From assembly GCA_049999805.1 (NCBI GenBank), contig JBNGIO010006265.1, positions 53,161 through 117,160 on the forward strand: a stretch of 64,000 nt of DNA, in the 5' to 3' direction. How positions within the stretch are numbered: position 1 is the stretch's first letter; each line of letters opens with the position of its first letter. Below are positions 1,271 through 37,963 of the stretch, in pieces. Source of the DNA: Folioceros fuciformis. Taxonomy: Eukaryota. The notes under the pieces were generated by a model that had not been told where the DNA came from, ran no database searches, and saw only the letters and a list, made by a program, of their open reading frames with translations. The translations under genes were made by a program, and so were the position numbers.

Positions 1271-4046
<2,776 letters not shown>

Positions 4047-19004: not shown

Positions 19005-20142
19005 ATGGCGAGCAGGGTTGTGGCCCGGCGTCTCGCAGCCTGCGCTACCCGCAGGTTCAGGGGAGACAATATCAGCTTCAGTCCCCAGGCTCTCAGGACC
19101 TTTGCCTCTGCGCCTGCTTGTCAATTTGGAGGTAATTGCCTTCCACCTTCGACTCCTGCTGGTTGGACTTTGCGTCATTCGGGATGCCTGATCTCTTGTG
19201 GAAGGATGGTGATTGGGCGTGATGATGGATCCGAGCTATATGTGTGAAGCATAAGACCTCGTGTAGTCATGCTGGCATTTAAATTCGGGATGGATGCTTT
19301 GGTGCAGAGAATGCAAATGAAGGCCAAATCTCTGGATTTGTTCGCATCCCTCACTTGCGGCACATGAGCGGTGGCGCACAAGGGCTTCCTTCGGTATCCG
19401 ATCCGCAAGTGAAGAAGGCCCTGGCAACGCTCTACGTGAACAACTGGGCGAAAATTGATGATGGCACGAAGAAGATCGTGGAGTCGACCCTGGCCAAGCA
19501 CCGGGATGAAGNNNNNNNNNNNNNNNNNNNNNNNNNNNNNNNNNNNNNNNNNNNNNNNNNNNNNNNNNNNNNNNNNNNNNNNNNNNNNNNNNNNNNNNNN
19601 NNNNNNNNNNNCCTCACGTCTTGGCAGTCGGCTCAAGCGGTGGAGCAGTTTGCAGCAAAACTGATTCATTTAAGGATGGAGCTGGACGAGCTCAGCGGGG
19701 GAAAATTCGGTGGTGAGGTATGAACGCTGTATTTGGGAAGACATAGTGTGGTGTGGTGCAGATTCTGTGCTTCTCTTTTCATTATTCAATCTGTTGCACT
19801 CAGGATGTTGCAGAAATTCCAGAACCAATCGTGAAGGCTCTGAAGTCTGCGTTCGCCCGATACTCCGCTTATTTGTACTCCATTGATGAAAGGACCGAGG
19901 GCTTTTTGAAGAAGAAGGTAGAGTTGGATCTTGGAAGCCTTATGCTGCAAGTCAAGCAGCGCTGCAACGGCTTGGAAGCTGAGTGGGGCGAGGTAATTCT
20001 GGAATGAAATCAACGCTTTGGCTTGTGACTGATAGACATCCTGCACTCTTTCACTGATGCCAAAGCTCTAAATTTGCAGATTGGAGTGCTCGGTACTTCA
20101 GGGCTTGCCGGTTCTTACATCGAGAAGTTTGCTCAAGTCTGA
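19005..20142 (+). CDS. SDH5: Plant-specific mitochondrial succinate dehydrogenase subunit 5
   Basis: Arg/Ala-rich mitochondrial presequence. Spliced exons LPSVSDPQVKKAL..., WQSAQAVEQFAAKLIHLRMELDEL, FLKKKVELDLGSLMLQVKQRCNGLEAEWG, C-terminus LGTSGLAGSYIEKFAQV*. One exon is interrupted by an N gap. Confidence 0.85.
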
Positions 20143-20400
20143 GCACCTGTATTGGCTACATGTTAAATTTTCAGTGAAGAAAGCTAGTTTTATCAGTTAG
20201 AAAACATGACAAGATTCGCGCACTGTAGTTGAACCGACCAAAAAACGGCACTCGCTTAGTTCGTGATTTCGTGAACGCTTTCCCGCTAATTGATCTTTAC
20301 ACGACTGAGAGAACGCGATTGCCTTCATCGAAGATGGCACGTCCGGGCGGTAAATGCTGAAGGACCAGCCGAGTCGGAGGTGGCAATCGTGGGGGAGGAG

Positions 20401-22953
20401 ATGGGAATGCAGCTGGCGATGGGTGTGAGCCTTTTCCCGGATGCCCTCTCGTGCGCGTTGTCAGGCAAGCCAGGATGCCTTCTCCGTGGCAGCCCAGTTT
20501 GTATGACGGGTCATTTGGATGCATTCCCAGTCCAAGCGTCCGTTGCAGGAGTCTCTTCCACACAAGGAGTGACGCAGAGAGAGCGGCAGGAGCTTCTGTG
20601 GCATTATTTCTTCTCGAATCCGTCGGACTGGTGGGACTACAGAGCGGATAAGAGAGGCCCTCGGCATCCTGACTTCAGACACAAGACATCCCAGGAGCCC
20701 CTATGGCTCGACAATTACCACAAGCCTATATGGGTGGATTCGCAGCTGGCCAGCTGGGATGTCCGAATGCGGGCTTCGGCTGCAGCGGCTGGGAATGGGC
20801 AGGGGGAGAATTTGGTGGGCGAGATGTTGAACAGACGTTGCTTGGAAGCCGAGCTCAGGGAGGCTGTTGAAGCGTTGGAGCAACTGGTGCAGCGGGGATG
20901 TCGGATCAGCGGCATTCTCTTTCATCGTTTGCTGAAGAGGTGTGCAGAAGAAAAGGACCTGGAATGTGGTAGGCGCGTGCATTCTCTTGCTGCCACACGG
21001 GGGTTGGCTTCCAACGCGTTTTTGGTGAATCATGTCATTGGTATGTATGCATCTTTTGGCAAATTGGAGGATGCAGTGCAGGTGTTTGGGCAGGTGCCAA
21101 GGCCCAGCATCCACATGTGGTCTTCCATCATTTTGGCGCATGCTCGGCAGGGGCAACCTGCACAGGCCATCAGCTTTTACAGGCAGATGAAACAGTCGGG
21201 CGTGGAGCCGGATAATCACATCTTCGTGGCAGCCCTTCAGGCTTGTGCTCTTGCAGAGGACTTGGTTTCGGGCAAGGAGGTGCATGCTGACATTCAAGCG
21301 AGTGCTGTGAAGGCGGATGTTTTCGTTGGGAACAGCTTGGTCAACATGTATGCTAAGAGCGGCTGCTTGGACGGTGCCCGGAAAGTGTTCGACAGCTTGC
21401 CCAAGAAGGATGTGGTGACATGGACGGCCATGATTGCAGGATATAGTCAGCAGGGGCTTGGGGAAGAAGCTCTGGTACTGTATGCGATGATGCGGAAGGA
21501 GGATGGCATGCTTTCAGCCAATCGTGTTACTTTCGTGTGTCTCCTTCAAGCCTGTGCCAGTGTGGGGGAGAAGGCGCTGCAGCAGGGCAGAGAGCTTCAC
21601 CGGCAGATTCGGGAAAGTCGGTCGGAAGATGATGCAGGCATTGGTAACAGCCTGGTGAACATGTACGCGAAATGCGGCAGCTTGGAGGATGCCCGGGAAG
21701 TGTTTGATGCTTTGCCGAGACGAGATGTTGTGACATGGAATGCCATGATTGCAGGATATGCTCAGCAGGGGCTTGGGCAACAAGCCCTGTCCTTGTATGC
21801 GAGTATGCAAAAGGAGGAGGCTTTACTGTCTGATGCTAATCATGTGACGGTTTCCTGCCTCTTACAAGCATGTGCTAGTGTGGGCGCTCTGCAGCAAGGG
21901 ATGGAGCTTCATTCTCTTTGTCGGGACAAAGGCCTTGAGGCTAACCCAGTCGTAGGCAGCTGCTTGGTTGGCATGTACTCGAAATGTGGGAGTCTAGAAG
22001 ATGCCCGCAAAGTCTTTGACGGATTGCCCTCAAAAAACTTGGTGACATGGACAGCGATGCTGAAGGGATATGCTGAACATGGTGAGGGTCACATGGCAAT
22101 CCGGTGCTTTGAAGATATGCTCCACCAAGGGGTTAAGCCTGATGAGATGACATTTGTATGTCTCATTGTGGCATGCAGCCATGTGGGCCTGGTGCAGGAA
22201 GGCAAGCGGTATTTTAGGATCATGGTGGAGGACTACGGGATCGTACCGTCCGACTACCACCACAGTTGCATGGTTGATCTTCTTGGCCGGTCTGGCAAAC
22301 TGGACGAGGCCGAACATTTGTTGCGAACAACGTCATTCACCAACGGTGTCGTGGGCTGGACAGCCTTGCTCACAGCTTGCAAGACCCACGGTGATGTAGA
22401 GCGGGGAAGACGATCTTTTGACCATCTGGTGGAACTGGAACCTGAGAACTCAACTTCGTACATCCTGCTGGGTAACATCTACGCGGATGCAGGCAGGTGG
22501 GACGACGTGGACAGGGTGGAAAGCTGGAGGAAGTCAGCAGGTGCTGTGAAGAAGCCTGCAAAAGCATGCATCGAAGTGCAGAAGGAGGTGCACGAGTTCA
22601 CAGTAGGGGAAGAGAGGAGGGACATCTCCACGACGCTCAGGTGCGTAAATACGAGGTTGAAGGAGGAAGGAGGCCATGTACCACAAACACAATTGGTGCT
22701 GCAGGCAGTGTCTGAGCAGGAGAAGGAGGATGCCCTGTGCGGGCATGCTGAGAAACTAGCTTTGGCATATGGTCTTCTCAACACCCCAGATGGCACCACT
22801 TTGGTGGTCACCAAGAATTTGCGCATGTGTAATGACTGCCACAGCAGCACCAAGGTCATGTCCCGCCTCGAGAAGAGAGAAATTGTAGTCAGGGATGCAC
22901 ATCGAGTACACCGATTCGTGGAAGGCTCCTGCTCATGTATGGATCGGCACTGA
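20401..22953 (+). CDS. PLS-class PPR protein with N-terminal PDF (OSB-like) motif and DYW:KP (DRH-ending) deaminase domain
   Basis: Intronless ORF with first ATG at 20401. PLS triplets, E1/E2, KKPAKACIEV, HAEKLA, CNDCH, C-terminus SCMDRH. Confidence 0.95.
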   Translation: MGMQLAMGVSLFPDALSCALSGKPGCLLRGSPVCMTGHLDAFPVQASVAGVSSTQGVTQRERQELLWHYFFSNPSDWWDYRADKRGPRHPDFRHKTSQEPLWLDNYHKPIWVDSQLASWDVRMRASAAAAGNGQGENLVGEMLNRRCLEAELREAVEALEQLVQRGCRISGILFHRLLKRCAEEKDLECGRRVHSLAATRGLASNAFLVNHVIGMYASFGKLEDAVQVFGQVPRPSIHMWSSIILAHARQGQPAQAISFYRQMKQSGVEPDNHIFVAALQACALAEDLVSGKEVHADIQASAVKADVFVGNSLVNMYAKSGCLDGARKVFDSLPKKDVVTWTAMIAGYSQQGLGEEALVLYAMMRKEDGMLSANRVTFVCLLQACASVGEKALQQGRELHRQIRESRSEDDAGIGNSLVNMYAKCGSLEDAREVFDALPRRDVVTWNAMIAGYAQQGLGQQALSLYASMQKEEALLSDANHVTVSCLLQACASVGALQQGMELHSLCRDKGLEANPVVGSCLVGMYSKCGSLEDARKVFDGLPSKNLVTWTAMLKGYAEHGEGHMAIRCFEDMLHQGVKPDEMTFVCLIVACSHVGLVQEGKRYFRIMVEDYGIVPSDYHHSCMVDLLGRSGKLDEAEHLLRTTSFTNGVVGWTALLTACKTHGDVERGRRSFDHLVELEPENSTSYILLGNIYADAGRWDDVDRVESWRKSAGAVKKPAKACIEVQKEVHEFTVGEERRDISTTLRCVNTRLKEEGGHVPQTQLVLQAVSEQEKEDALCGHAEKLALAYGLLNTPDGTTLVVTKNLRMCNDCHSSTKVMSRLEKREIVVRDAHRVHRFVEGSCSCMDRH

Positions 22954-23213
22954 GAGACTTCACAAGGGCAGTGCGGAGAAATGCCCTTCTCTTGTATGTC
23001 GCTTGCTGTACTCCTCGGAAGGCCATAAACAATAAATGCGCACCTATGTAACCTCTGGAATTGAAGCATTTGGTCTACGCGGCTAACAACTATGTTTTGT
23101 CCTGGTGGGTTGTTGAACCCTGAACCTTGGGAGGTAGCAGGATTTGACGATTTGAGCGTGACGATTTGATGTTGTCACGGCCAACGGGAGTGCGTGGATG
23201 TTGGTGAGACAAC

Positions 23214-25724
23214 ATGGCGACGCAGGTGGTAGACAGCAAATTGTGGGTTCAATTTGCTCAGATTGCCAGTTTTCCAATGTTGGCGGCCTCAGCGTGTAAG
23301 CAGCCTTGCGCTGCAACGGGTTGGCGGGGTTCTTCTTCCGCCTTGGCCTTCGCCTCCACTCGCAACAGCAGTTGCACTATAGTGGATGAAAGGGTGACGC
23401 AGAGGGAGCGGCAAGAGCTCTTGTGGCAGCATTTCTTCTTGGATCCAGCCGAGTGGTGGGACAACAGGGCGGAAAACAGGGCATCTTCCTCTCCCCGCCA
23501 TCAGCATCCTGACTTCAAGCACAAGACCTCCAGGCTCTCTCTGTGGCTTGACAGCTCTCACAAACCGGATTGGGTGGATGCGCAACTAGCCAGATGGGAC
23601 CAAGGGAGGCGACCGGAGGAGCTGTTCCGGCTGAGCGAGGCTGTGGAAGCGCTGGATGTCCTAGTGCAGCGGGGGTGGGGTTGTCATGTCACGCCTGCTC
23701 TCTTCTGTCGCCTCCTCAAGAGGAGCATGGCTCAAAACGACCTTGTGTTCACCAGGCGCCTGCATTCCCTGGCAGCCGCAAGTGGGCACGGCTCCAACGC
23801 ATTCCTGGTCAACCACATGATTGGAATCTATGCAGCGCATAACAAATTGGAGGATGCGATGCAGGCCTTCTCCCAAGTGCCGGTGCCGGATGTTTACATG
23901 TGGTCTTCCATCATACTGGCGCATGCGAGGCACGGACAACCTGCTCAAGGCATTAAGCTGTATCGGGCGATGCGGGAGCTGGCAGAGGTGGAGCCCGATA
24001 ACCGCCTGTACGTTGCAGCCCTTACGGCTTGCGCTGCTGCGCAGGATCTGCCAGCCGGCAAGCAGGTGCATGCTGATTTGCAGGCAAGTGCTGTGAAGGC
24101 AGACATTTTTCTGGGTAACAGCTTGGTGAATATGTATGCTAAGTGCGGGAGCTTAGTGGATGCTCGCCAAGTGTTCGACACATTGCCTAGAAGAGATGTG
24201 GTCACTTGGACGGCCATGATTAAGGGTTGCACGCAGCAGGGACTCGGTAGAGATGCTCTAGCTCTTTATACACAGATGCAGCAGGAGGGCGTTACTCTGG
24301 CCAACCGGGTCACGTATATGTGCCTGCTTCAGGCCTGTGCCAATGTGGGAGCACTGCAGCAGGGAAAGGAGCTCCATTTAAGGATCCGCGAACAAGGCTT
24401 GGAAGCTGATGCAGCTATTGGCAACTCCCTGGTGAATATGTATGCTAAATGCGGGAACTTGGAAGATGCTTGCGCGGTGTTTGACAGTTTGCCCCAAAGA
24501 GATGTGGTGTCATGGACGGCCATGATTGCAGGATATTCTCAGCGTGGGCTCGGTCAAAATGCCCTGGCTCTGTATAATAGAATGCAGCTGGAGGGGATCA
24601 CTCCGGCCAATCATGTTACATTTGTTTGCCTCCTGCAAGCATGTGCCAGCGTGGCAGCCCTGCAGCAGGGCAAGCAGCTGCACTCCCAAATTCGGGAAAG
24701 AGGCCTTGAAGCTGACGAAGTCATTGGTAACTGTCTAGTTAATATGTATGCTAAATGTGGGAGCCTGGAGGATGCTCGCAGAGTGTTTGACAGATTGCCC
24801 ACCAGAGATTTGGTGACGTGGACAGCTTTGCTTACCGGCTACGCTGAACATGGTGATGGTCACACTGCAATCAGGTGTTTTGAAGACATGCTGCGGGAGG
24901 GAGTTGAGCCAGATGACACCACGTTTACTTGCTTATTTGTAGCGTGCAGTCATGCAGGCCTTGTGCATCAGGGCCAACGTTATTTCAGGATGATGGTCGA
25001 GGACTATGGGATTGTTCCCACTGATAAGCACCAAAGTTGCATGGTTGATCTTCTTGGCCGATCAGGCCAGCTGGAGGAGGCAGAAAGTATGTTGCGAAGT
25101 AGGTCATTTGTGAGGGATGTGGTGGGCTGGACAGCTTTGCTGACTGCCTGCAAAAGCTATGGTGATGTGGAGCGTGGACGTCGATGTTTTGACCGTCTCT
25201 TAGAACTGGAAGCAGATGATGCAAGTTCATACGTGCTTTTGGAGAACATCTATGCCAAGGCAGGCAGGTGGGACGATGTAGACAGGATAGAGAATCTGAG
25301 AAAGACGGCTGGTATTTCGAAGAAGGCTGCCAAGGCGTGCATCGAAGTGCAGAATGAGGTGCATGAGTTCACTGTGGGGGAAGATAGGTCTGACATTTCT
25401 TCCAAGCTGAGGAGTTTGAACCTGAAGTTGAAGGAGGAAGGGGGCCATGTACCACATACACAACTGGTATTGAAGGCAATGTCTGAGGAGGAGAAGGAGG
25501 ATGCCCTGTGTGGACACGCAGAAAAATTGGCGTTGGCATATGGTTTGCTCAACACGCCAGATGGTACAACTTTGGTTGTCACGAAGAATCTTCGTATGTG
25601 CAATGACTGTCACAGCAGCACCAAGATAATGTCACGCCTTGAGAAGCGGGAGATCATAGTGCGAGATGCTCATAGAGTACATCGATTCCTTGATGGAGCT
25701 TGTTCATGTAGGGATCGGCATTGA
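23214..25724 (+). CDS. PLS-class PPR protein with N-terminal PDF (OSB-like) motif and DYW:KP-type (DRH-ending) deaminase domain
   Basis: 836-aa intronless ORF. PLS triplets, E1/E2, KKAAKACIEV, HAEKLA, CNDCH, C-terminus SCRDRH. Confidence 0.95.
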   Translation: MATQVVDSKLWVQFAQIASFPMLAASACKQPCAATGWRGSSSALAFASTRNSSCTIVDERVTQRERQELLWQHFFLDPAEWWDNRAENRASSSPRHQHPDFKHKTSRLSLWLDSSHKPDWVDAQLARWDQGRRPEELFRLSEAVEALDVLVQRGWGCHVTPALFCRLLKRSMAQNDLVFTRRLHSLAAASGHGSNAFLVNHMIGIYAAHNKLEDAMQAFSQVPVPDVYMWSSIILAHARHGQPAQGIKLYRAMRELAEVEPDNRLYVAALTACAAAQDLPAGKQVHADLQASAVKADIFLGNSLVNMYAKCGSLVDARQVFDTLPRRDVVTWTAMIKGCTQQGLGRDALALYTQMQQEGVTLANRVTYMCLLQACANVGALQQGKELHLRIREQGLEADAAIGNSLVNMYAKCGNLEDACAVFDSLPQRDVVSWTAMIAGYSQRGLGQNALALYNRMQLEGITPANHVTFVCLLQACASVAALQQGKQLHSQIRERGLEADEVIGNCLVNMYAKCGSLEDARRVFDRLPTRDLVTWTALLTGYAEHGDGHTAIRCFEDMLREGVEPDDTTFTCLFVACSHAGLVHQGQRYFRMMVEDYGIVPTDKHQSCMVDLLGRSGQLEEAESMLRSRSFVRDVVGWTALLTACKSYGDVERGRRCFDRLLELEADDASSYVLLENIYAKAGRWDDVDRIENLRKTAGISKKAAKACIEVQNEVHEFTVGEDRSDISSKLRSLNLKLKEEGGHVPHTQLVLKAMSEEEKEDALCGHAEKLALAYGLLNTPDGTTLVVTKNLRMCNDCHSSTKIMSRLEKREIIVRDAHRVHRFLDGACSCRDRH

Positions 25725-25979
25725 GCGAACAGATTGTTTGCACTTCCTTGAGGAGGGCATTATGGCAACCTAGATATCACATTTTTTGTACTCTCTCCAA
25801 GAATGTGACCTCGTACTAGTGCAGCAGGAGGGGAAGGTGCCTGGCTCAGAGATTTGTGAAATGGCCCCCCAAGCTCATTCAGCTCAAAGGTTGTTTCTTG
25901 GTTAAATATGATGGCAGAAAGTACCAGCTCGGCCAAATGTTTAACAGAAGATTTTCTGGCGTGCCTCTGCCGCGGTGAT

Positions 25980-26634
25980 GAGATGTATGCAGTATGGTGT
26001 TCAAACGCTTTTAAGATCTTTGGCTTTGCCTGAAGACACTTGGTAGGAAGCTTAACAACAGCGAAATAAGCTACAGTCCTCGGCCTCTGTTGAGCTTGCT
26101 CAAGAGCAGGAGCTCCTGACACTAAGAGCTGCAGGTCCGTACAGTGACATTCATAGCTGTCCTACGTCTGCTCAATGGTTGTACTGATGGTCCTGGGCGA
26201 CCCCATGTTGTAATGTCTGGGCAAGGAGCTTGGGAGTATACCCGTGGAAACTTGCATGGGTCACATTTTTCGCCAGGCAGACCACTTGGAAGAGTGAGAG
26301 TTCGCCGCAGTCTCAATCTTGTAAACCGTGTGGGCTCCAATATAAGTTTTTAATGCAAGGTTACAGGAGGTGTGGAGACAGATCAAGGGCACAGATGTTT
26401 TCAACGTCTAACAAACTGGGGATATTGCTGCCACTTCACTTTTGCTCTTGCCAGCAGTGTATGCCGACTAGGTGGGAGGAAACGCTTGAGAATGTCAGTC
26501 TGAGGAGGATGGGTGGGTGCTGTCAGTATGAGGAGGATGGTTGGTTTTTGTGGACACCAACAAGTGACAAAAAATGTGCAAGTTCGGAGGAGGTCTGCAT
26601 GTGCTCGACGCTGGGAAAGGTGCATATTGACTGA
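25980..26634 (+). pseudogene. Heavily decayed PLS-PPR/E-domain fragment
   Basis: Collinear motif remnants in shifting frames with stops: EMYAVW..AFKIF (S motif), VTFIAVL (L2), TCMGHIFRQADHLEE (S2), CKVTGGVETDQGHRCFQRL (E1), LLLPAVYAD-RWEE...LRRMGG (E2). Confidence 0.7.
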
Positions 26635-27239
26635 CACACAGGGCTAGTGTTCAATTGATCTCAGGTGGCTACGTAACTTCATTCCAAGTTCTCCTATCTG
26701 AACCTGTTTGGGTTGTGCTAATCAGACTCTTACTGAGACCGGCCGTAACCTCGAAACTCAAAAACTAGAACATGGACAAGGAAGCCAGCAAAATCGAACC
26801 TATTAGACTAAAAAGTCGAAGCGAGAATGAACAAAAACAGAGAACATTGAACCGTGAACATCAGAGACTCACCGAGACACCCTCATTGAAGGATCACCCT
26901 AAACATTGAGCTGTAGCTGTAGATGCATGGGTGTGGAGGAAGATTCCCGCGCAATCTGCTTAATCCTTGCCGAGGATGAGTCATACTAGAAAAAAATGCG
27001 GCGGTACCGCTATGGCCGACCAACTCATTTCATCGTAGGTTCGGCGATTCGGGTTAATGGCCGGGAGAAGCCCCTACTGTTGAACTATACAAGATCTTCT
27101 GCTTTCTGAGCGAAGGCCAGCAAGCCGTGGAGCGATTGATATGAAATCACATTCCCTGTTGAATATGCGTGCGTGTTGGTGTAGGATGGACTCAAGCTGG
27201 GCAGGCTTTTGTCTAAATTGAAGTTTTCTGAAGGAATCC

Positions 27240-29819
27240 ATGGCGACGCAGGTGGAGCTGTCCTTGGTTCTTCAGTCTACGTTTGTGGGACGGCAGACTG
27301 ATTTGCATCCGCGCGCTTTGCTGCCATCCTCACCCTCCCAGGCTTGGTTAGGGGGACGCGGAATGGTGTTTCTAGTCTCCCCGGCCGCCGCAGCAGCAGC
27401 TGCCTGTACAGACATTTGTAGAACTCAAGTCACGCAAAGAGAGCGACAGGAGAAATTGTGGCAACTGTTCTTCTCAGACCCTTTCGACTGGTGGGATAAC
27501 AGAGTTGATAAATCAAGCGAACGCCATCCCGATTTCAAGCATAGGACCTCCAAGGAGCCTCTGTGGCTCAACAGCCCCCACAAGCCGGCTTGGGTGGATT
27601 CGCAGCTGGCCAGGTGGGATGTTCAGATGAGGGGGCCTCGTGTTCTGTCTGCACAGGTTGATGATGGTGGTGGTGGTGGTGACCAGATTTTGGTAATCCA
27701 GAGCTTGAGGAAACATTGTCAGGAGGAGGGAGAGCTGAGTGAAGCTGTGGAAACCTTGGATTTGCTGGTCCAAAGGGGATATCGTATTCCCGATGATGTC
27801 TTCTATCGGTTGCTGAGGAGATGCATGGCAGATAAGGATCTGGTTTGTGGTAGGCGTGTTCACTCTCTTGTTGTCACCAGCGGGTACGGGGCTAGTGCAT
27901 TCTTGGCAACCCACATCATTGGAATGTATGCTTCTCATGGTGAATTGGCAGATGCAGCGCAGGTGTTCACCGAAGTGCCCAAACCGAACCTCTTCATGTG
28001 GTCTTCCATTATATTGGCGCATGCTCGGCAGGGCCAGCCCAAGCATGCAATCAAGTTTTATCGACGCATGAGAGCATCCGGTGTGCAGCCAAATAACCAT
28101 ATCTTTGCGGCAGCCCTTAAGGCATGCGCTTCTGCACAGGACCTCGTTTCAGGCAAGGAGGTTCATAATGATATTCAGACTAGTGCAGTGAAGGCCGATG
28201 CTTTCCTTGGCAACAGCCTGGTGACCATGTATGCCAAGTGTGGAAGCTTGAGTGATGCTCGCAAGGTGTTTGAAAGTCTGCCAACTAGGGATGTGGTAAC
28301 ATGGACTGCCATGATTGCAGGTTATACGCAGCAGGGTCTCGGACAAGAAGCTCTGGCTTTGTATGCAAGTATGCAACATGAGGGCGTCACTCCAGCTGAT
28401 CATGTGACATTCTTGTGCCTTTTGCAGGCATGTGCCAGTGTGGGGGCACTGCAGCACGGAAAGCACCTCCACTCACAGATTCGGGAGCGAGGTCTTGAAT
28501 GTGACGTTTTCATTGGTAGCTCCCTTGTTGACATGTACTCAAAATGTGGGAAGATGGATGATGCCCGCAAAGTGTTTGATGGATTGCCGATCAGGAATTT
28601 GGTGACATGGAATGCAATGATCGCAGGATATTCTCAGCAAGGACTTGGGCGAGAAGCCCTGGCCATTTATGCTACTATGCGACATGAGTGCATAACTCCA
28701 GCTGATCGTGTTACGTTTGCGTGCCTGCTCCAAGCATGCGCCAGCGTGGGAGCACTGCTGCAGGGAACGCAAATTCATGGACAGATTCGTGCAAGGGGCC
28801 TTGAGGATGATGTGTTCATTGGCACGTCCCTGGTGGACATGTATTCGAAATGTGGCAGTTTGGAAACTGCTCGCAAAGTTTTTGACGGATTGCCCACAAA
28901 AGTTGTCGCGACTTGGAACGCTCTTCTCATTGGCTGTGCTGAACACAGTGACGGTCACATGGCTATGCAATGCTTTGAAGAGATGCTTGAGCAGGGTGTA
29001 CAGCCAAACGAGAAAACGTTTACTTGTCTCTTGGTGGCATGCAGTCATGCAGGCCTGGTGCAGGAGGGCAGGAAGTATTTCAAGACGATGGTGGAGGACT
29101 ATGGGATTGTGCCGACCGACTACCACAATAGCTGCATGGTCGATATTCTTGCCCGGGGAGGCCAACTGGATGAAGCTGAAAACATGCTGCTTACTACCTC
29201 ACTTGTGAATGAGGCCGTGGGCTGGACATCTTTGCTGAATGCTTGTAAAATCTATGGCGAGATAGAGCGTGGACAACGATGCTTTCATCATCTGTTTGCA
29301 TTGCAAGCAGATGATGCAAGTGCATATGTTCTATTGGGTAACATCTATGCAAATGCGGGCAAGTGGGATGAAGTGGATAGAATAGAAAGCTTGAGGAAGT
29401 CAGTAGGTGCCATGAAGAAGCCTGCAAAGGCTTGCATTGAGGTGAAGGATGAGGTGCACGAGTTCACCGTAGGGGAAGACAGATCTGACATTTCATCGAA
29501 GCTGAGGAGTGTCAACTCACGATTGAAAGAGGAAGGAGGACATGTGCCACATACACAGTTGGTGTTGAGGGCAGTGTCTGAGCAGGAGAAGGAAGATGCA
29601 CTGTGTGGACATGCCGAAAAGCTAGCCCTAGCATACGGTCTGCTCAACACTCCAGATGGTGCAACTTTACTCGTTACCAAGAATCTTCGCATGTGCAATG
29701 ACTGCCACAGTAGCACCAAGATAATGTCATGTCTGGAGAACCGAGAGATAATAGTAAGGGACACGCATCGGGTACATCGATTTTCAAACGGGTCCTGTTC
29801 TTGTGGGGACAGGAATTGA
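27240..29819 (+). CDS. PLS-class PPR protein with N-terminal PDF (OSB-like) motif and DYW:KP deaminase domain (DRN ending)
   Basis: 859-aa intronless ORF. KKPAKACIEV, HAEKLA, CNDCH, C-terminus SCGDRN. Confidence 0.95.
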   Translation: MATQVELSLVLQSTFVGRQTDLHPRALLPSSPSQAWLGGRGMVFLVSPAAAAAAACTDICRTQVTQRERQEKLWQLFFSDPFDWWDNRVDKSSERHPDFKHRTSKEPLWLNSPHKPAWVDSQLARWDVQMRGPRVLSAQVDDGGGGGDQILVIQSLRKHCQEEGELSEAVETLDLLVQRGYRIPDDVFYRLLRRCMADKDLVCGRRVHSLVVTSGYGASAFLATHIIGMYASHGELADAAQVFTEVPKPNLFMWSSIILAHARQGQPKHAIKFYRRMRASGVQPNNHIFAAALKACASAQDLVSGKEVHNDIQTSAVKADAFLGNSLVTMYAKCGSLSDARKVFESLPTRDVVTWTAMIAGYTQQGLGQEALALYASMQHEGVTPADHVTFLCLLQACASVGALQHGKHLHSQIRERGLECDVFIGSSLVDMYSKCGKMDDARKVFDGLPIRNLVTWNAMIAGYSQQGLGREALAIYATMRHECITPADRVTFACLLQACASVGALLQGTQIHGQIRARGLEDDVFIGTSLVDMYSKCGSLETARKVFDGLPTKVVATWNALLIGCAEHSDGHMAMQCFEEMLEQGVQPNEKTFTCLLVACSHAGLVQEGRKYFKTMVEDYGIVPTDYHNSCMVDILARGGQLDEAENMLLTTSLVNEAVGWTSLLNACKIYGEIERGQRCFHHLFALQADDASAYVLLGNIYANAGKWDEVDRIESLRKSVGAMKKPAKACIEVKDEVHEFTVGEDRSDISSKLRSVNSRLKEEGGHVPHTQLVLRAVSEQEKEDALCGHAEKLALAYGLLNTPDGATLLVTKNLRMCNDCHSSTKIMSCLENREIIVRDTHRVHRFSNGSCSCGDRN

Positions 29820-30774
29820 GATTATTTGGAAAATGTTGTTTTACGCACCATGTCCACACCGCATTATCAATTGCTGGGCCAGGATTGGAACCTTCAGATA
29901 TGTTGACAGATATGCCTTTGTTGGCTTACAGTCATCTACACTTCTAAATAGATCCTATTGAGTTGGACTGTAGGAAGGGGTCTGGCCCATTTCAGCCCAG
30001 CATCTTTGGTCTCAGGGTGCCTTCTTGAGGTGGGAAAAGTGACTTTGATCATCGACACCGTGCAATGTCACAATGCTGGGACACCTGGCTGTATTCAAAC
30101 GTCAATCCCCGAGCAAGCTGCCCTCCAGGATGGTGGTAAGAAGATGGGACGTCCTATAACACAGGCGTCTTCTTGGCTGGTTATTCGAACTGGATAAGGC
30201 TGAAGATACGTTGTGAGGTACGTCATCTTGGCTGAGTCGCTGCTGCAGCCTTTGCTTAGTGATTACAAAAGTTAGGGTGGTTTTCCGTTTGGTCAATTAG
30301 ACCCTGCAAGTGCTGCGTTCTGTCATGCAGGTATGCGGGTGTGGAAAAGCTTGGAAATTTCAAGAAATGTCAGCATGCAGGCTCAGAGGCATGCGTGAGG
30401 CGGGTCGTGCCTACTACAAGAGTTCACAATTCTCAACTGAGGAGTGCGAATAGAGCTGTTACGGGGTCTACTCTGTATATAATTCGACACCCTGCTTAAT
30501 AAGCATGGATGAGGCAAGAAGTGCATAATGTGAACAATTTTCATCTGAGGATTGAGGATAGAGGTGCCCCTTACGAGAAGAGAAGTCTACATGTCCCAGC
30601 CGGAGAAGATAGCTTTGCGGTTCAGGGCGTGGCTGGAACAGCAGTTGTGAGCCGTTGCAGAGGGTCACCGATGAACGGTGAATGTGGGAACTGGTGGCAA
30701 GGTGCTGTTAAACGAATGGAAGAAACGCGAGCGACAACACAGTGCCCCTTGTATCCTAGTGAACCTCGGACAAG

Positions 30775-33084
30775 TCAATTCCGATCCCCACAGGAACAAA
30801 CGCCTTCCACGAATCGATGTACTCGATGGGCATCTCTCACAATTATCTCTCGTTTCTCAAGTTGTGACATGATTTTGGTGCTGCTGTGGCAGTCATTGCA
30901 CATGCGAAGGTTCTTAGTGAGAATCAAACTGGTGCCATCTGGTGTGTTTAAAAGTCCATAGGCCAAAGCCAATTTCTCCGCATGACCACACAAGGCGTCT
31001 TCCTTTTGCTGCTCAGAGACTGCCTTAAGTACCAACTCCGTTTGAGGCAAATGCCCTCCTTCCCACTTCAACTTGGTCTGCAGGCTTTTCATCTGTGAGG
31101 AAAGGTCCGACCTCTGTTCGCCTACCGTAAATTCGTGGACCTTGTTCTTCACTTCTATGTAAGCCTTCGCAGCTTTTTTCATAGCACCTGCCGCCTTCCT
31201 CAGGCCTTCTATTTTACCCACGTCATCCCACCTGCCCGCGGTTGCGTAAATGGTTCCTAACAGCACATACGAACTTGCGTCATCTGCTTCCAATTCCACA
31301 AGACGATCAAAGCAGCGTACTCCCCGCTCTACATCACGATGGCCTTTGCACGCACTCAACAACGCGGTCCACCCCACGACTTCGTTCACAAGGGACGTAG
31401 TTCGCAGTATATTTTCAGCCTCATCCAGCCTCCCTGAACGACCAAGGAGATCAACCATGCAAATGTAGTGATGCTCAGTAGGCCCAATACTATATCCCTC
31501 CACCATCCTCCTGAAATACTCCTTCCCCTCCTCCACTAGGCCTGCATGACTACAAGCCACCAAGAGAGAAATAAAAGTGGTCTCATCAGGCTCGACGCCC
31601 TCCTCAACCATATCTTCAAAGCACCGGATCGCCATCTCACCATCACCATTCTGAGCGTACCCATTAATCAGGGCATTCCATGTCACCACAACCCTGCTGC
31701 ACAAGCCGTCAAACACCCTACGAGCATGCTCCAAACTCCCACACTTCGCATACATGTCGACCAGGCAGCTCCCAATAAACACATCATTCTCAAGCCCACT
31801 TTCACAAATCTGCGAGTGAGCCTCCATCCCCTGCTGCAAAGCACCCACACTCCCACACGCTTGAATCAGCCCCAGAAACGTAACATGATCCGCTGCAGCC
31901 CTGCCCTCCCTCCTCATAAGCCCATATAGAGCAAGGGCTTCCCGCCCCAGCCCCTGCTGCGAGTACGCAGCAATGATAGCATTCCACGTCACCACATCCC
32001 GCCTCACAAGCCCGTCAAACACCTCCCGAGCCTCCTCTAAGCACCCGCATCTCGCGTACATGGTGACCAAGCAATTCCCAACCACAGCATCACCGTCCAT
32101 CCCCCTCTCCCTCACCCGCAAGTGCAACTCCCTCCCCTCCTCCAACGCCCTCAACCCGGCGCAAGCCTGGAGCAGGCAAACAAAAGTAACCTGATCAGCC
32201 AGAACCACCCCATTCTCCTGCATCCTCCTGTACAACCCCAGAGCCTCCTCCTCGCGCCCTTGCTGCGAATACCCCGCAATCATAGCAGTCCAAGACACCA
32301 CATCCTTATCCCCCAGTCCGTCAAAAACCCTCCGAGCATCCCCCAAGCTCCCGCACTTGGCATACATATTCACCAAACTGTTCCCCACAAACACATCACC
32401 CTCCACCCCACTCGCCTCCATGTCCCTATGCACCTCCTTCCCAGCCCCCAAATCCTGCCCATCCGTACAGGCCTTGAGCACCGCCGCGAAGATATGATTA
32501 TCCGGCCTCACGCCAGCCTGCCGCATCCGGCGGTACAGCCCCACAGCCTCCGCGACCCTTCCTTGCTGCGCATGCGCCAAGATAATCGACGACCACATAA
32601 ACACATTGGGCTCATCCACAGCAGCGAACACCTGCATTGCGTCCCCCAGCTCCCCAAGAGCGGCGTACATCCGGATCACATGGTTGGCCAAGAACGCGTC
32701 CGCCCCGTACCCGCTCGCCAGAGCAACCCAATGAACCCTCCTTCCCAGAGACAGGTCCTTCGCCCCCACACACCTCCTGAGCACCCGGTACAAGACCGTG
32801 CTGCTGGCACGGCATCCCCGCTGCACCAGGAGCTCCAACTCCGCCACATCCTCTCCCAGCCCCTGCGCCTCTCCGCGGCTTCCAAGCCCCTGCACTTGAC
32901 GGACGTCCCATCTACTGGCCCCGCTGTCGTGGTTCTGCATCAGCCTGGAAGAAGCTGCAAGAGCATCGCACTGGCCTTGTGCAAGGAAACTGCGGCGCAC
33001 GCACTCCCCAGCGGTCGCCATCAACTCAGACCCTGCATCGAGCAGGCTGGGGAGGGCCTGCAGTGCCGGTGGCATCATCGCCAT
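30775..33084 (-). CDS. PLS-class PPR protein with DYW:KP-type deaminase domain (DRN ending), lacking the PDF motif
   Basis: Intronless ORF with first ATG at 33084. KKAAKAYIEV, HAEKLA, CNDCH, C-terminus SCGDRN. Confidence 0.95.
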   Translation of the reverse strand: MAMMPPALQALPSLLDAGSELMATAGECVRRSFLAQGQCDALAASSRLMQNHDSGASRWDVRQVQGLGSRGEAQGLGEDVAELELLVQRGCRASSTVLYRVLRRCVGAKDLSLGRRVHWVALASGYGADAFLANHVIRMYAALGELGDAMQVFAAVDEPNVFMWSSIILAHAQQGRVAEAVGLYRRMRQAGVRPDNHIFAAVLKACTDGQDLGAGKEVHRDMEASGVEGDVFVGNSLVNMYAKCGSLGDARRVFDGLGDKDVVSWTAMIAGYSQQGREEEALGLYRRMQENGVVLADQVTFVCLLQACAGLRALEEGRELHLRVRERGMDGDAVVGNCLVTMYARCGCLEEAREVFDGLVRRDVVTWNAIIAAYSQQGLGREALALYGLMRREGRAAADHVTFLGLIQACGSVGALQQGMEAHSQICESGLENDVFIGSCLVDMYAKCGSLEHARRVFDGLCSRVVVTWNALINGYAQNGDGEMAIRCFEDMVEEGVEPDETTFISLLVACSHAGLVEEGKEYFRRMVEGYSIGPTEHHYICMVDLLGRSGRLDEAENILRTTSLVNEVVGWTALLSACKGHRDVERGVRCFDRLVELEADDASSYVLLGTIYATAGRWDDVGKIEGLRKAAGAMKKAAKAYIEVKNKVHEFTVGEQRSDLSSQMKSLQTKLKWEGGHLPQTELVLKAVSEQQKEDALCGHAEKLALAYGLLNTPDGTSLILTKNLRMCNDCHSSTKIMSQLEKREIIVRDAHRVHRFVEGVCSCGDRN

Positions 33085-34525
33085 CACCTGAGTCCTCGAC
33101 ACGATCCTTCGGCAGCCAGGAGCGACAATCCATCCATTTGTTAGTGCTGAGCTATGTCGGCCCGCTGCTCAGGACTCGTTGGCGTAATTCTAGTCTTCGA
33201 TCCTGCGTCACTGATGGAACATCCTTTGAAAGTCATCACGTCTCATGATTAATAAGTCGAGTCTATAGAACAGGGGATTCGGGACCAGGCAATCGATCCG
33301 GACACTCCTTCCTTATTGCAACAACCGATCGTTTTGTAACATTCATCGTTTCCGTTTCAAGAATGTGGGAGTTATGTTGTGTGAAAGTCTTCTTAGAAGG
33401 TGTGTGAACCCGTAGACTCATAAGCTAAGTTGGGCTTCTAACCACAAAGTGTTGAAATCGCCAAGAGTGTAGTTTTAAAAGGGGATGGCAAGTTAGGCCA
33501 CGACGGTATGACCGGTGGGTGATTGTTAATATCTTTGCCTCTCGCAAGACAATGAGCCCACCTAGACTCTAGGTGTCCTTGTACCTAGGTAAGCATGGTA
33601 TGTAGATAGCCTTTAGTCCTTCTCAGACTCGGCCTCCGCTATACTTCCTCTGCACATCCTCAACAATTTGACTTGGTTCTTGGATGCTTGGATAACAATG
33701 TCATTCTACTTTCAAGTTGAGATGCATGCAGAACAATGAGCGCGAATTTTGGTCCTACTCACATTCTAGAGATATGTCACCAAACTCAATCCTAACAAAC
33801 ATTGTGAGACAAATCACCAATTTGAGACCTAGCACACACAATAGAGATAGAGATAGGTCACCAATCTCGATTTTAGGGCACATTCATTGTAGAGACAAGA
33901 CACAATATAGGGTTGGTGATCCCAAGCTAGTCCACTTGATCATGAGAAGAGAGGAGCTAAGAAGCTCATCTCATGGAAAAGGAGGCAAAAGATCATCCTT
34001 TACTTCAATCCTTTATAAAGAGTAGTTAGCCCTCTTGGTATGATTAAAGGAGACTTAGCGTCGTTGCACATGCTATATATGTCGTGTAAGGGATTGTTTA
34101 TTAATATAAATATTTCAAATTGTTTATTAATATAAATATTTCAAAGAGTAGTTCATCTTAATTTCTAGCATCCGTAAAAATAAAATTCTAGGTATGGGAA
34201 AGAATATGCATCATTTCTCTAAGAATGAGCTAAGATAAACACGCTCATACATTTTTAAAGGATAATCTAGTATAATTATATTAATAAAAAAATCACGCCA
34301 CAAAAATTAGAGTAACCGGACTGTGTGGAGGGTATACTCCACCTGATTCGGTGGTCGAAATATTATCGCAACCAGAAGGAACCGAGAGATTGTCCCATCT
34401 TACCGGAAAGTTTCAACTTGTCCCCTAAGTCAGGTCATTTTAGCGTTGCTAGTGAAGGCCTCGTAGGGTTTTGGCGCAGACGAGACTTTGTTGGAATCAG
34501 CAGCTCCTGACAATCCGAGTGGACG

Positions 34526-35921
34526 ATGGCGGAGGATGCAGCGCCCGATCTGAAGGAGGAAGCAGTGCCCGGGGATATTGGCCCCTTCGATCCAAGCAAG
34601 AAGAAGAAGAAGAAAAAGGTGCGCCTTCAAGAGTACGAGGAGCTTGAGGAGGTGAAGGAACTTACGGAGGCACTCACAGGTCGGCATTCGCTTCAGCCTG
34701 TCCAGTGGAAGCGCGCAATCACCGTCTGACACCCGTGATTGATCTGCGCTCTTGGCTCATGCAGTGACAGACACAGTGGATTCTTCCTTCGCTGGACTTA
34801 AGAAGAAGAAGAAGAAAAAGCCGGTAAACGGAGGCATTGGGGACATTCCTTGTTGCTGTGGGCGGGGCCTGAGTCACCAGGATGTTGTCTAACACAAGTC
34901 GTGCTGATGTTCCAGGTCGAAGGAGACCTACCTGATGAAGAAGATCTCACTGAGGCACTCACTGAAGCCAATGGTACGAAGTTCGTTTCGACTTCTGTTT
35001 GGTTACGAGGACTGGTTTTATTGTGAGGAGCGATTGTTACAGAGGGCCTCAGTCTTGTCACGTCGTTTGCAGGCGGTAGAGGGGATGCTGGCGAGGATGA
35101 GGAGGGTGAACCTATTGTGCTGGAATCTAGCCCTCGCTATCCTTGGGAAGGGTCTGATAGAGACTACCTGTATGAAGAGGTGCCTAACTTTGCCTCTAAT
35201 CCGTCTTAGCTTTAAGCCGTGAAGGGTGACTGATGTCTGAACCCCTTTTTCTTTTTTGCATCAGCTGTTAGACAGGGTGTTCAACATCCTGAGGGAGAAC
35301 AACCCTGAACTGGCTGGCGAGAAGAGGAGGACGGTCATGAGGCCACCACAGGTGCTCAGAGAGGGAACCAAAAAAACAGTTTTTGTCAACTTTATGGATC
35401 TCGTGAAAACGTAAGTTGGTTACTTCGCCGGCCCATGTCCTTTTTTCGTGTTTTCTGGTGGCTGTTGTAGCTTCATTTTTTTCCCGGGGAGTGTCTCTCT
35501 CAACTTCAGAGTGTACTGTGTTTCACAGCATGAGACGTAACGGTGAGCACGTGATGGCGTTCTTACTCTCGGAGCTCGGAACCAGCGGCTCGCTGGACGG
35601 CCAACAGCGCCTGGTGGTGAAGGGTCGCTTTGCTCCTAAGAACTTCGAGGGAATCGTTCGCCGATATGTTAGTAAGTATATCTTGCCTCTATGAAACCCG
35701 TAGCTGTCTCCCCCTCGAATTCTGTGTCCATTTATGAACCTGAATCCGTTGATGCAGATGAGTACGTCATGTGCAACGGGTGTAAGAGCTCGGATACCCT
35801 CCTCACGAAAGAGAATCGGCTTTTTTTCCTGCGTTGCGAGCAATGTGGATGCTCGAGGTCGGTGGCGCCCATTAAGGCCGGATTTGTTGCCAGGGTGGGA
35901 CGTCGTAGGGCCACTACTTAG
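34526..35921 (+). CDS. EIF2S2: Eukaryotic translation initiation factor 2 subunit beta, multi-exon
   Basis: Poly-Lys boxes ([18 protein letters not shown]), [54 protein letters not shown]2-C2 zinc finger YVMCNGCKS...FLRCEQCG. Confidence 0.95.
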
Positions 35922-36265
35922 AGGTCATGACAGGTGGCTGGAGCGCAGCTTGGCATAGTAGCTATGAAAGTGAAGGCAGCCGGGACTATGTTGATGATTG
36001 CTTTGTATCGATTCAAGCGCTTCCAGATCCGTAGAAACGGGCGCGGGCCAGTAATGTCAAAAGTCCCAGGCCTCACAGTATAAAGCAGTGAGCAAGTCGT
36101 AGTCTCCTAACTGTAAGAATAAGCCTTTGCTGAGGTGGTTTTGTTGTTCAGGGTCGGACCATCCAGACCCTGTGATTGAATTGGCACGCATCTACAACCT
36201 CGTCTCCTTACAGACGGGACAAAGGGCTATATACTCTCTCATCTGCTGTTGGCGTAGGCAAGCCG

Positions 36266-37663
36266 CTACAATCTCATCTGCTGCAAGAAGCCGAGGTTAA
36301 GGGTATCCCGAACCATTAACACAACTCCGATGGCCAGCAGTAGCAAAATGCCGGAAGACATGATCCCCTGCTCCACGCCGGAGGGCAGCTTCTTGCCCCC
36401 ACGAAGCGCTTCCACCACGATGAGTGCGAGATAACCTCCATCCAGAGCCGGCAGAGGCAGCAAGTTCACCACTGCCAAATTAATGTTCACAATGGCCGCG
36501 AATTGAAACAGACCGGCGATGTCGGATCTGGCAACCTCGGCTCCCACAGCCACAATGGCCACGGGGCCAGACAGCTTGTCTGCCGTTTGCGCGAAGTTGA
36601 AGACGATCTGCTGGAGCCCGTCCACCACTACGTTGGTGAGCCTAGAAAACTCCTTTCCTGCGTACCCGGCCGCCTCCACCACGCTCTTGGTCCGTACCCT
36701 CTGCGTGAGGGCATTCGGCGAGAGCTGCACCCCGATCTTCCCCGACCCATCATATCCCTGGTCTGGAATGACTTCCACATCCACAGTCTCCCCCCCGCGC
36801 TGCAGCTGGAAGAAGAGCGTCTTCCCCGCACTCCGCTTGATGGTGTCCACTAGCTCCAGAACAGACGGCTCCTCGGCCCCCAGGACCACCCCGTTNNNNN
36901 NNNNNNNNNNNNNNNNNNNNNNNNNNNNNNNNNNNNNNNNNNNNNNNNNNNNNNNNNNNNNNNNNNNNNNNNNNNNNNNNNNNNNNNNNNNNNNNATAAC
37001 ATCCCCTCCGAGAAACCCCGCCCTGGCGGCAGCCGAGCTGGACACCACCTCGGGCACCAGCACCCCGGGCCGAAACCTTTGCTCTAGCAACCCCACCGTC
37101 TGCGCCTGCGCGAACAGCACGCTGTAGGCGAAGATCACGTTGGCGATGACGCCCGCCGAGATCACGAGCGCCCGGTCCCGGATGGGCCGATTCTTCAGAA
37201 GATCGGGGTCGTTCGGGGAGAACTCGCTCTCGGGGTCATCGTCCGGGAAGGCGACGAAGCCTCCCAGCGGGATGGCCCGCACCGAGTATTCCACGCTCTT
37301 CCACTGATACTTCACCAGCTTGGGCCCGAACCCAATGGCGAACTGCGTCACGTGGATGCCAAGCAACCGAGCCATGGAGAAATGCCCGCACTCATGCACT
37401 GTCACAATCGCCGCCAACACTCCGAGAGCTTGCAGAACGGATTCTGGGCCCTCCAGATTGATGCCCGCCAGGGACGCCTGGATCGCCCGCGCCCGCAGCC
37501 GGCAGCCCTGCGTCCCCCCTTGCCTCGTCCGAATCCGAAATTGCAGATTCAGCCGAGACTGGGAACCCAGCCGAGACTGCATCCGCCGCAGAGCCGGCGT
37601 GCACGCGCAGGCGCAGGTGGATGTAGCCATCCCCCCCGCTGCCAGCCTAGCGCTGGCCGCCAT
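36266..37663 (-). CDS. ARASP: Plastid site-2/RseP (M50) intramembrane metalloprotease with PDZ domain (ARASP-like), apparently intronless, spanning an N gap
   Basis: HECGH zinc motif, FAIGFGP, RAIPLGGFV, PDZ-like region, NLLPLPALDGG. Transit-like N-terminus from ATG 37663. Confidence 0.92.
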   Translation of the reverse strand: MAASARLAAGGMATSTCACACTPALRRMQSRLGSQSRLNLQFRIRTRQGGTQGCRLRARAIQASLAGINLEGPESVLQALGVLAAIVTVHECGHFSMARLLGIHVTQFAIGFGPKLVKYQWKSVEYSVRAIPLGGFVAFPDDDPESEFSPNDPDLLKNRPIRDRALVISAGVIANVIFAYSVLFAQAQTVGLLEQRFRPGVLVPEVVSSSAAARAGFLGGDVXXXXXXXXXXXXXXXXXXXXXXXXXXXXXXXXXXNGVVLGAEEPSVLELVDTIKRSAGKTLFFQLQRGGETVDVEVIPDQGYDGSGKIGVQLSPNALTQRVRTKSVVEAAGYAGKEFSRLTNVVVDGLQQIVFNFAQTADKLSGPVAIVAVGAEVARSDIAGLFQFAAIVNINLAVVNLLPLPALDGGYLALIVVEALRGGKKLPSGVEQGIMSSGILLLLAIGVVLMVRDTLNLGFLQQMRL

Positions 37664-37963
37664 GGTTGCGCCTCCCAAACTCCTGCTCCTGCTCTCCCTT
37701 CGACCTGTTTGCTGCTTCTCTTGCTGCCTCCGCTTCCGGGTCAGATGACCAGCGGTCTGCAGCTTCTCAGGGAAGCACCAGGCGATCACCACTTCCGGCA
37801 CTAGGGAAGGAGCCTGAGCGCCCGGAGCAAGGCCGCTCCTCGGGGAACGATGCTTGGCTGGCCACGGAACCTCGACCCCCGGTAGAACTCGTGGCGACGA
37901 TTTTTTCGTGACCCCACACTTCGGCGGGGATAACAGGCAAAATCAAAGGTGTCTTCAGTCGGG

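What the first reader, a model, noticed from the sequence alone, without database searches (positions are those of the whole stretch)
20401..33084. Tandem cluster of four DYW:KP-type PPR genes: candidate reverse (U-to-C) RNA-editing enzymes
Seen in sequence: all four replace the canonical PG box with KK(P/A)AKA(C/Y)IEV. They have HAEKLA rather than HSEKLA at the zinc site, an intact CNDCH, a shortened segment after HEFTVGE, and end in DRH or DRN instead of DYW. Established knowledge: the KP/DRH variant class is restricted to hornworts, ferns and some lycophytes, the lineages that perform organellar U-to-C editing, and KP-type domains are the proposed catalysts. Inference: these are natural U-to-C editors of potential use as programmable RNA base editors.
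Basis: partly seen in the sequence, partly recalled or inferred. Interest (0 to 1): 0.75.

Follow-up and report, generated by a model that had tools for sequence, protein, structure and literature searches.

The report
Reverse RNA editors with OSB-type motif
Four neighbouring genes of what is likely a hornwort encode members of a known, several-hundred-gene family that likely converts U to C in organelle RNA, and three of them carry an extra front-end motif related to plant organelle single-stranded-DNA-binding proteins, which likely helps them hold nucleic acid.

Summary
Four intact single-frame PLS-PPR-E1-E2-DYW genes carry the KP box, HAE, CNDCH, the four-residue deletion, Lys88 and DRH/DRN ends; the fourth lies on the opposite strand. 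They are ordinary DRH-type DYW:KP paralogues: the genome gives at least 150 such matches plus 188 GRP-type ends, the hornwort pattern. U-to-C activity is likely but untested. The class and its use as editors are published, and the designer protein built on DRH sequences (KP1) was not among the active ones, which weakens the tool claim. It is intact in 47 of 55 GRP, 38 of 89 DRH, 3 of 56 E+ and 0 of 5 PG proteins sampled, with dN/dS about 0.2. It also occurs on fern, lycophyte and Sphagnum PPR proteins, including a C-to-U type, so it is not specific to U-to-C editing. My searches found no paper on this fusion, but two key papers were not read. The scan's earlier notes held nothing relevant.

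The parts
20401..22953 (+). Gene 1: N-terminal extension (likely targeting peptide), PDF motif, 14 PLS motifs, E1, E2, DYW:KP ending DRH
20575..20766 (+). OSB-type PDF motif of gene 1 (59.9 bits)
22552..22950 (+). 133-aa DYW:KP domain of gene 1; Lys88 codon at 22813
23214..25724 (+). Gene 2: same layout, ending DRH
23397..23606 (+). OSB-type PDF motif of gene 2 (53.5 bits)
25323..25721 (+). 133-aa DYW:KP domain of gene 2; Lys88 codon at 25584
27240..29819 (+). Gene 3: same layout, ending DRN
27429..27620 (+). OSB-type PDF motif of gene 3 (56.2 bits)
29418..29816 (+). 133-aa DYW:KP domain of gene 3; Lys88 codon at 29679
30775..33084 (-). Gene 4, converging on gene 3: PLS array, E1, E2, DYW:KP ending DRN; no PDF motif, only the short tail that follows it in genes 1 and 3
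30778..31176 (-). 133-aa DYW:KP domain of gene 4; Lys88 codon starts at 30915

Best explanation
These are four old local duplicates of DRH-type PPR-DYW:KP genes whose products likely enter an organelle, are predicted to read different RNA targets with their 14 PPR motifs, and likely convert a U to a C using the zinc site and Lys88, with the N-terminal PDF motif of three of them likely acting as an optional grip on single-stranded nucleic acid. Shown: intact frames, domain layout, catalytic residues, DRH placement, different code residues in each array, homology of the motif to OSB PDF repeats, and purifying selection on it. From papers on synthetic relatives: Lys88 attacks the uridine and forms a covalent intermediate that plants resolve in an unknown way. 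Inferred: organelle import, target identity, direction of editing, and any role of the motif. I favour sequence-independent binding to the RNA upstream of the PPR site, or to nucleoid DNA near nascent transcripts.
For: Residues H65, A66, E67, K88, M92, C93 and C96 are present in 4 of 4. The four nest among DRH proteins, apart from all HSE/DYW proteins. The genome has the hornwort profile of hundreds of full-length KP genes and few PG genes; a near one-to-one supply of full-length U-to-C factors is described for Anthoceros (PMC13263110 passage). Two mitochondrial fragments in the nuclear assembly carry sites that only a U-to-C change would restore: TAT at His378 of Cox1 and an in-frame TAA in nad2. 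GRP-based KP2 and KP3 edited only U-to-C. Contigs of a run that shows spliced neighbouring genes match parts of all four genes without a difference, and three other organisms have long contigs about 90-95% alike over the genes. The motif matches OSB proteins; dN/dS is 0.20-0.23 against 0.39-0.61 in its flanks; the OSB1 PDF motif suffices for ssDNA binding (PMC6963530 passage).
Against: No assay, target or editome for these genes. The DRH-based designer KP1 was not among the active ones. G64 and V113 (4 of 4) and H133 (2 of 4) are the residues that turned KP6 into a C-to-U-only enzyme. Lys88 is also in 6 of 6 PG proteins here, so it does not set direction. The mitochondrial fragments could have mutated after insertion, and the His site was not resolved in the laid contigs. 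The motif is absent from gene 4 and from about half of the DRH proteins, and designer editors work without it. RNA binding by a PDF motif was not shown in any passage I read.
Confidence: 0.68

Rival explanations
1. DRH proteins are C-to-U or two-way editors, or need a partner to work, and the GRP subtype does most U-to-C editing in hornworts.
For: KP1 (DRH-based) was not among the active designs while both GRP designs worked. KP6 is two-way and is C-to-U in vitro. The KP6 C-to-U-favouring G64 and V113 are the norm in DRH proteins (88 and 90 of 90). Only about six PG-type DYW genes were found for all C-to-U sites.
Against: G64 and V113 are also in 58 of 58 GRP proteins, whose designer versions are U-to-C only. 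The U-to-C-favouring C6, T17, A116 and V119 are present too (T17 and V119 in 4 of 4, C6 and A116 in 3 of 4). One consensus on one foreign target is a weak negative. Numerous E+ proteins with a PG-type box could serve C-to-U sites with donor domains.
Confidence: 0.2
2. The proteins edit as above, but the PDF motif is a passenger: an ancient fusion that is decaying, or part of the cleaved targeting region, with no role in editing.
For: It is lost in gene 4 and below 10 bits in 43 of 89 DRH and 40 of 56 E+ proteins, with partial remnants in others. It sits on C-to-U and non-catalytic PPR proteins elsewhere. Designer editors lack it and work.
Against: Where kept it is constrained almost as much as the P2-E2 region: dN/dS 0.23 against 0.18 in GRP at similar dS, 0.20 against 0.14 in DRH. 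It is intact in 47 of 55 GRP proteins, folds with confidence (pLDDT 83) and persists from Sphagnum to ferns.
Confidence: 0.3
3. Some of the four are redundant or non-functional leftovers of PPR gene turnover.
For: The family is very large, with broken copies nearby in rank (short frames and a stop; truncated PDF-bearing frames).
Against: All four frames are intact although only 63-69% identical, all catalytic residues are kept, and similar long contigs exist in three other organisms.
Confidence: 0.08

Closest known systems
Hornwort DRH-type PPR-DYW:KP proteins (Gerke et al. 2020, as summarised in PMC9478123)
   Same: KP box, HAE, 133-aa domain without xHP, M92, DRH-like end, PLS-E1-E2 array, co-occurrence with the GRP subtype.
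   Different: Nothing in the catalytic part. The passages I read do not mention an N-terminal PDF motif; the original paper was not available.
Designer U-to-C editors KP1-KP7 (PMC9478123, PMC11845758, PMC11332814)
   Same: Same domain class and Lys88; KP1 is built on the same subtype.
   Different: These are natural genes with their own arrays, N-terminal extensions and PDF motif. Only GRP-based KP2 and KP3 and fern-based KP6 were active.
OSB proteins (OSB1-4) and their PDF motif
   Same: The same roughly 65-residue motif with LW..FF..P..WWDNR, PDF(K/R)H(K/R) and LWL..P.WV signatures.
   Different: In OSB it follows an OB fold, often in several copies, and binds ssDNA. Here it precedes a PPR array, usually once, with no OB fold. 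The genome's own OSB gene has a predicted 76-nt intron inside the motif; the PPR copies do not.
DYW:PG C-to-U editors (OTP86, DYW1, synthetic 9KFX)
   Same: HxE and CxxC zinc site, conserved lysine, homologous domain (E 1e-31 to 1e-38).
   Different: PG box, HSE, xHP and DYW end are replaced; they form a separate part of the tree.

Membership tests
PLS-class PPR-E1-E2-DYW | (P1-L1-S1)n-P2-L2-S2-E1-E2-DYW order | tested here: met
   L-S-(P-L-S)x3-P2-L2-S2-E1-E2-DYW by pattern parsing in genes 1-3; in gene 4 the parse merged one P-L pair and missed the first L, which the alignment shows
DYW:KP | KP-type N-terminal box in place of PG | tested here: met
   KP in genes 1 and 3, KA in genes 2 and 4
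DYW:KP | HAE (or HCE) at the zinc site, with CxxC | tested here: met
   HAE and CNDC in 4 of 4; definition from PMC11845758
DYW:KP | 132-133 aa domain lacking xHP; M92 | tested here: met
   133 aa and M92 in 4 of 4; four-residue gap against 9KFX and 7O4E
DYW:KP | Lys88 | tested here: met
   4 of 4; also present in PG proteins, so not diagnostic
DYW:KP, DRH subtype | DRH-like end and grouping with DRH proteins apart from GRP and PG | tested here: met
   Tree of 215 C-terminal regions; the GRP clade has support 0.99, support inside the DRH group is low; no named DRH reference sequence was available
DYW:KP | U-to-C activity on an organellar RNA | not testable with these tools
   Needs an assay or knockout
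DYW:KP | PPR-code match to U-to-C sites of the species | tested here: inconclusive
   Only two candidate sites were at hand and neither fits (best 4 of 8); organelle genomes were not found in G000
DYW:PG | PG box, HSE, DYW end | tested here: not met
OSB PDF motif | Sequence signature of about 50-70 aa with Pro-Asp-Phe | tested here: met
   53-60 bits against a profile built only from 26 repeats of the eight OSB-like hits; OSB1 among the database hits
OSB PDF motif | Binding to single-stranded DNA | not testable with these tools
   Known for Arabidopsis OSB1; not tested for these copies
OSB proteins | N-terminal OB fold | tested here: not met
   No SSB or OB family in the four proteins; SSB matches lie on other contigs

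The most novel reading that the evidence does not exclude
Editing factors of seed-free plants carry an undescribed built-in cofactor: a PDF motif taken once, early in land-plant history, from an OSB gene. Hornwort U-to-C enzymes keep it far more often than their E+ relatives because it holds the RNA, or tethers the enzyme to the nucleoid, long enough to finish the lysine-linked reaction. Its absence from all designer KP editors would help explain why they are weak, stall crosslinked or, for the DRH design, do nothing.
Probability: 0.2. Interest if true: 0.7.

Novelty: new variant of a known kind. Interest (0 to 1): 0.4.

Why it matters
The four genes alone add little: they are typical members of a published class. 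The PDF fusion matters more. No natural KP enzyme has a known activity, and it is open how plants release the crosslinked intermediate. Heterologous tests often trim the protein to just before the first PPR motif (14 residues kept for PPR56), which would remove this motif. Genes 1-3 (with the motif) and gene 4 (without) form a natural comparison set. If the motif raises efficiency or release, it bears on both the plant mechanism and U-to-C editor design.

Tried and rejected
Target prediction: no rbcL or psaA/B match in G000 and only single short cox1 and nad2 fragments; the four codes fit neither U-to-C candidate site. Direct sight of U-to-C editing: laying four runs on the cox1 fragment listed three C-to-T and one C-to-A difference on the coding strand but not the His site, so inconclusive. 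No RNA holder listed on record for the region; run types are guesses, and one exact contig crosses the gene 2-3 spacer, so depth says nothing on expression level. The idea that the motif is specific to U-to-C enzymes was rejected after it turned up on a Sphagnum DYW:PG protein and on fern and lycophyte PLS/E proteins. The idea that the cluster is recent or special was rejected: 63-69% identity, no single clade, clusters common. Pfam and PHROGs have no model for the motif. The ESM Atlas lead to phage gp49 scored under 0.9 and was not supported by the viral fold search. No solved structure matched by sequence or fold: best Z 4.1, none at 5 or more among 48,161 chains, which does not show a new fold. 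A region-limited homologue search for the motif gave nothing among 57 candidates although such proteins exist. N-terminal composition did not settle plastid against mitochondrion. The maximum-likelihood motif tree timed out and FastTree was used. Gerke 2020 and Zaegel 2006 were not held; Gutmann 2020 was not requested and did not appear in any listing. A 'CURE domain' that I half recalled was not found. No supplements were opened; they could mention the motif.

Full report
Observation. Four long stop-free frames lie at 20290-22953, 23208-25724, 27222-29819 (plus strand) and 30775-33168 (minus strand). Each has PPR, E and DYW_deaminase matches. Counting from the KP position gives a 133-residue domain with H65, A66, E67, K88, M92, C93 and C96 in all four, the numbering used in PMC11845758. 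Each array has 14 PLS motifs plus E1 and E2, and the code residues differ between genes. Gene 4 faces gene 3, so the array is only partly tandem.

Context. The genome is 87 Mb. A search with the gene 1 domain returned 150 matches, the number scored, out of 559 candidates; the domains in the 30 loci fetched were all HAE types, nearly all with DRH-like ends. A pattern for a GRP end followed by a stop gave 188 matches against 0 for the reversed control. A Pfam DYW search put only four DYW-ending genes among its 30 best loci. DRH and GRP are described as the two hornwort variants (PMC9478123), so the organism is inferred to be a hornwort. Close KP neighbours are common: 19 pairs among 138 hits, 7 tandem, 7 convergent, 5 divergent. 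The four proteins are 63-69% identical. For each gene a window mate ranks first or second among about 210 PPR frames, though gene 4 ranks only 14th-15th for the other three, and they do not form one clade. This fits an old local duplication with one inversion.

What is known. I read PMC9478123 (parts 1-3 of 6 and passages), PMC11845758 (parts 1-2 of 4) and PMC11332814 (parts 1, 3 and 4 of 6). Three of seven consensus KP proteins edited U to C: GRP-based KP2 and KP3 and fern-based KP6. KP1, built mainly on DRH proteins, was not among them. KP6 also edits C to U. Lys88 is needed for U-to-C and forms a crosslink that persists outside plants. The activity of natural KP proteins was unknown as of 2025. 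So the class and the editor idea are published, and the subtype found here is one whose design failed.

Direction of editing. Sequence cannot decide it. The four carry residues that pushed KP6 towards U-to-C (C6, T17, A116, V119) and towards C-to-U (G64, V113, H133). G64 and V113 are also fixed in 58 of 58 GRP proteins, whose designs are U-to-C only, so they are not decisive. The organism seems to need U-to-C editing: a cox1 fragment has TAT at the position of His378 of plant Cox1 and a nad2 fragment has an in-frame TAA. Both are likely nuclear insertions and could have mutated; laid contigs listed C-to-T differences at three codons but not the His site. In one search, contigs of run X1 show GT..AG joints in the flanking genes and match parts of all four genes exactly; runs of three other organisms give contigs of 0.6-1.5 kb about 90-95% alike over the genes, including the PDF-coding stretches, with little or no cover of the spacers. 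Run types are guesses, so this is moderate support for transcription and conservation.

The extra motif. Genes 1-3 share a block before the first PPR that Pfam does not model. Its 8 database hits were OSB-like proteins, one named OSB1. A profile built only from their 26 repeats scores the three window copies at 53-60 bits and finds none in gene 4. The motif is the PDF motif, described as sufficient for ssDNA binding in OSB1 (passages of PMC6963530 and PMC6451138). I fetched 180 regions chosen from the KP, Pfam and E+ hit lists. With the window they gave 211 PPR frames; six open at an end were dropped and four were re-classed from the tree. At 40 bits or more the motif is in 47 of 55 GRP, 38 of 89 DRH, 3 of 56 E+ and 0 of 5 PG proteins; at 15 bits, in 51, 41, 9 and 0. 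Paralogues are not independent, only the single frame was scanned so upstream exons would be missed, and the E+ set was chosen by likeness to one gene, so the Fisher value (2e-14) is descriptive only. Twenty further regions picked from unassigned motif hits gave 21 strong frames: 12 GRP type, 4 E+, 2 truncated, 3 cut by the region or contig end. A more sensitive scan shows remnants in 11 of 56 E+ and 7 of 89 DRH proteins above the control maximum of 8.4 bits, and only 1 weak hit among 23 early-branching DRH proteins. Where the motif is kept, dN/dS is 0.23 (GRP, n=43) and 0.20 (DRH, n=37), against 0.39-0.61 in the flanks and 0.07-0.18 in the C-terminal domains; choosing high-scoring copies biases this downward, and DRH dS is near saturation. 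The model folds with pLDDT 83.

Range and origin. Among 120 database relatives, 3 of 42 HAE/HCE proteins and 0 of 74 HSE proteins carry it; many are truncated, and the three named fern and lycophyte KP-like proteins lack it. A profile search of 1.8 billion representatives gave 1123 hits; of the best 150, eight are PPR fusions. Six have names: Pteridium, Adiantum, Ceratopteris, Diphasiastrum (two) and Sphagnum compactum, the last a canonical DYW:PG protein. None of the six is a seed plant, but 973 hits were not seen. In a small tree all PPR-borne copies group together (support 0.96) with two sequences labelled OSB-like inside, a weak hint of one early origin. The genome's own OSB gene has a predicted 76-nt GT-AG intron inside the motif, absent from the PPR copies. 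Capture through a spliced transcript would fit the retroposition reported for PPR genes (PMC13386178 section 6), but later intron gain fits as well.

Is the fusion in print? Searches for the motif with PPR or editing terms listed only OSB and unrelated papers. A 2026 survey of editing-factor fusions has no mention of PDF or OSB in its main text, nor does PDF appear in two other recent papers searched. The hornwort genome papers were seen only as passages on PPR genes. Gerke 2020 and Gutmann 2020, the likeliest places for a mention, were not read, and no supplements were opened. I put the chance that it is already noted at about one in four (judgement).

Verdict. The finding is real and correctly classed, but ordinary as a cluster. 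The best reading is four single-target U-to-C editing factors (0.68). The added value is an apparently overlooked OSB-type motif on editing factors of seed-free plants, kept preferentially in hornwort KP proteins, and a natural with-and-without set in this cluster. Interest 0.4.

Noticed in passing
window 37964-41626 (-): A fifth PPR gene, 1220-aa frame, PLS-E+ type with a PG box (KKPGRSFW) and no zinc domain; no PDF motif. Likely a C-to-U specificity factor needing a donor DYW.
   Followed up: partly
window 36266-37942 (-): Single-frame peptidase M50 (site-2 protease type) gene directly behind the E+ gene on the same strand.
   Followed up: no
L031:1470-1700 and L255:1501-1665: Short mitochondrial insertions (cox1, running on into what looks like its upstream intron, and nad2) that keep unedited codons, including U-to-C-type sites.
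   Followed up: partly
L253:923-1184 and L254: The genome's own OSB gene: SSB fold plus one PDF motif split by a predicted 76-nt intron.
   Followed up: partly
L082-L222, GRP genes; L072-L251, E+ genes: GRP proteins share a conserved N-terminus (MATVWQPD type); several E+ proteins have related N-termini and eroded PDF remnants, suggesting a shared front end with different C-termini. A few KP genes carry two PDF copies.
   Followed up: partly
L230 and L231: PG-clade DYW genes with unusual residues (one ends DQW, and one PG-clade protein has HAE), possible donor-type or intermediate domains.
   Followed up: no
P0132-P0135, P0177 (database): Proteins with 9-11 PDF repeats and no PPR, and a kinesin with three PDF matches, show the motif is mobile beyond OSB.
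   Followed up: no
window 1466-4055, 7203-7724, 51631-52041, 57801-58837: Exons of an EF-hand plus kinase gene (likely a calcium-dependent kinase), an LRR gene, a CNNM gene and a CLP1-type gene; ordinary neighbours.
   Followed up: no
window 19802-20269 and 34546-36800: Spliced genes flanking the cluster, seen as GT..AG joints in four runs; not identified.
   Followed up: no
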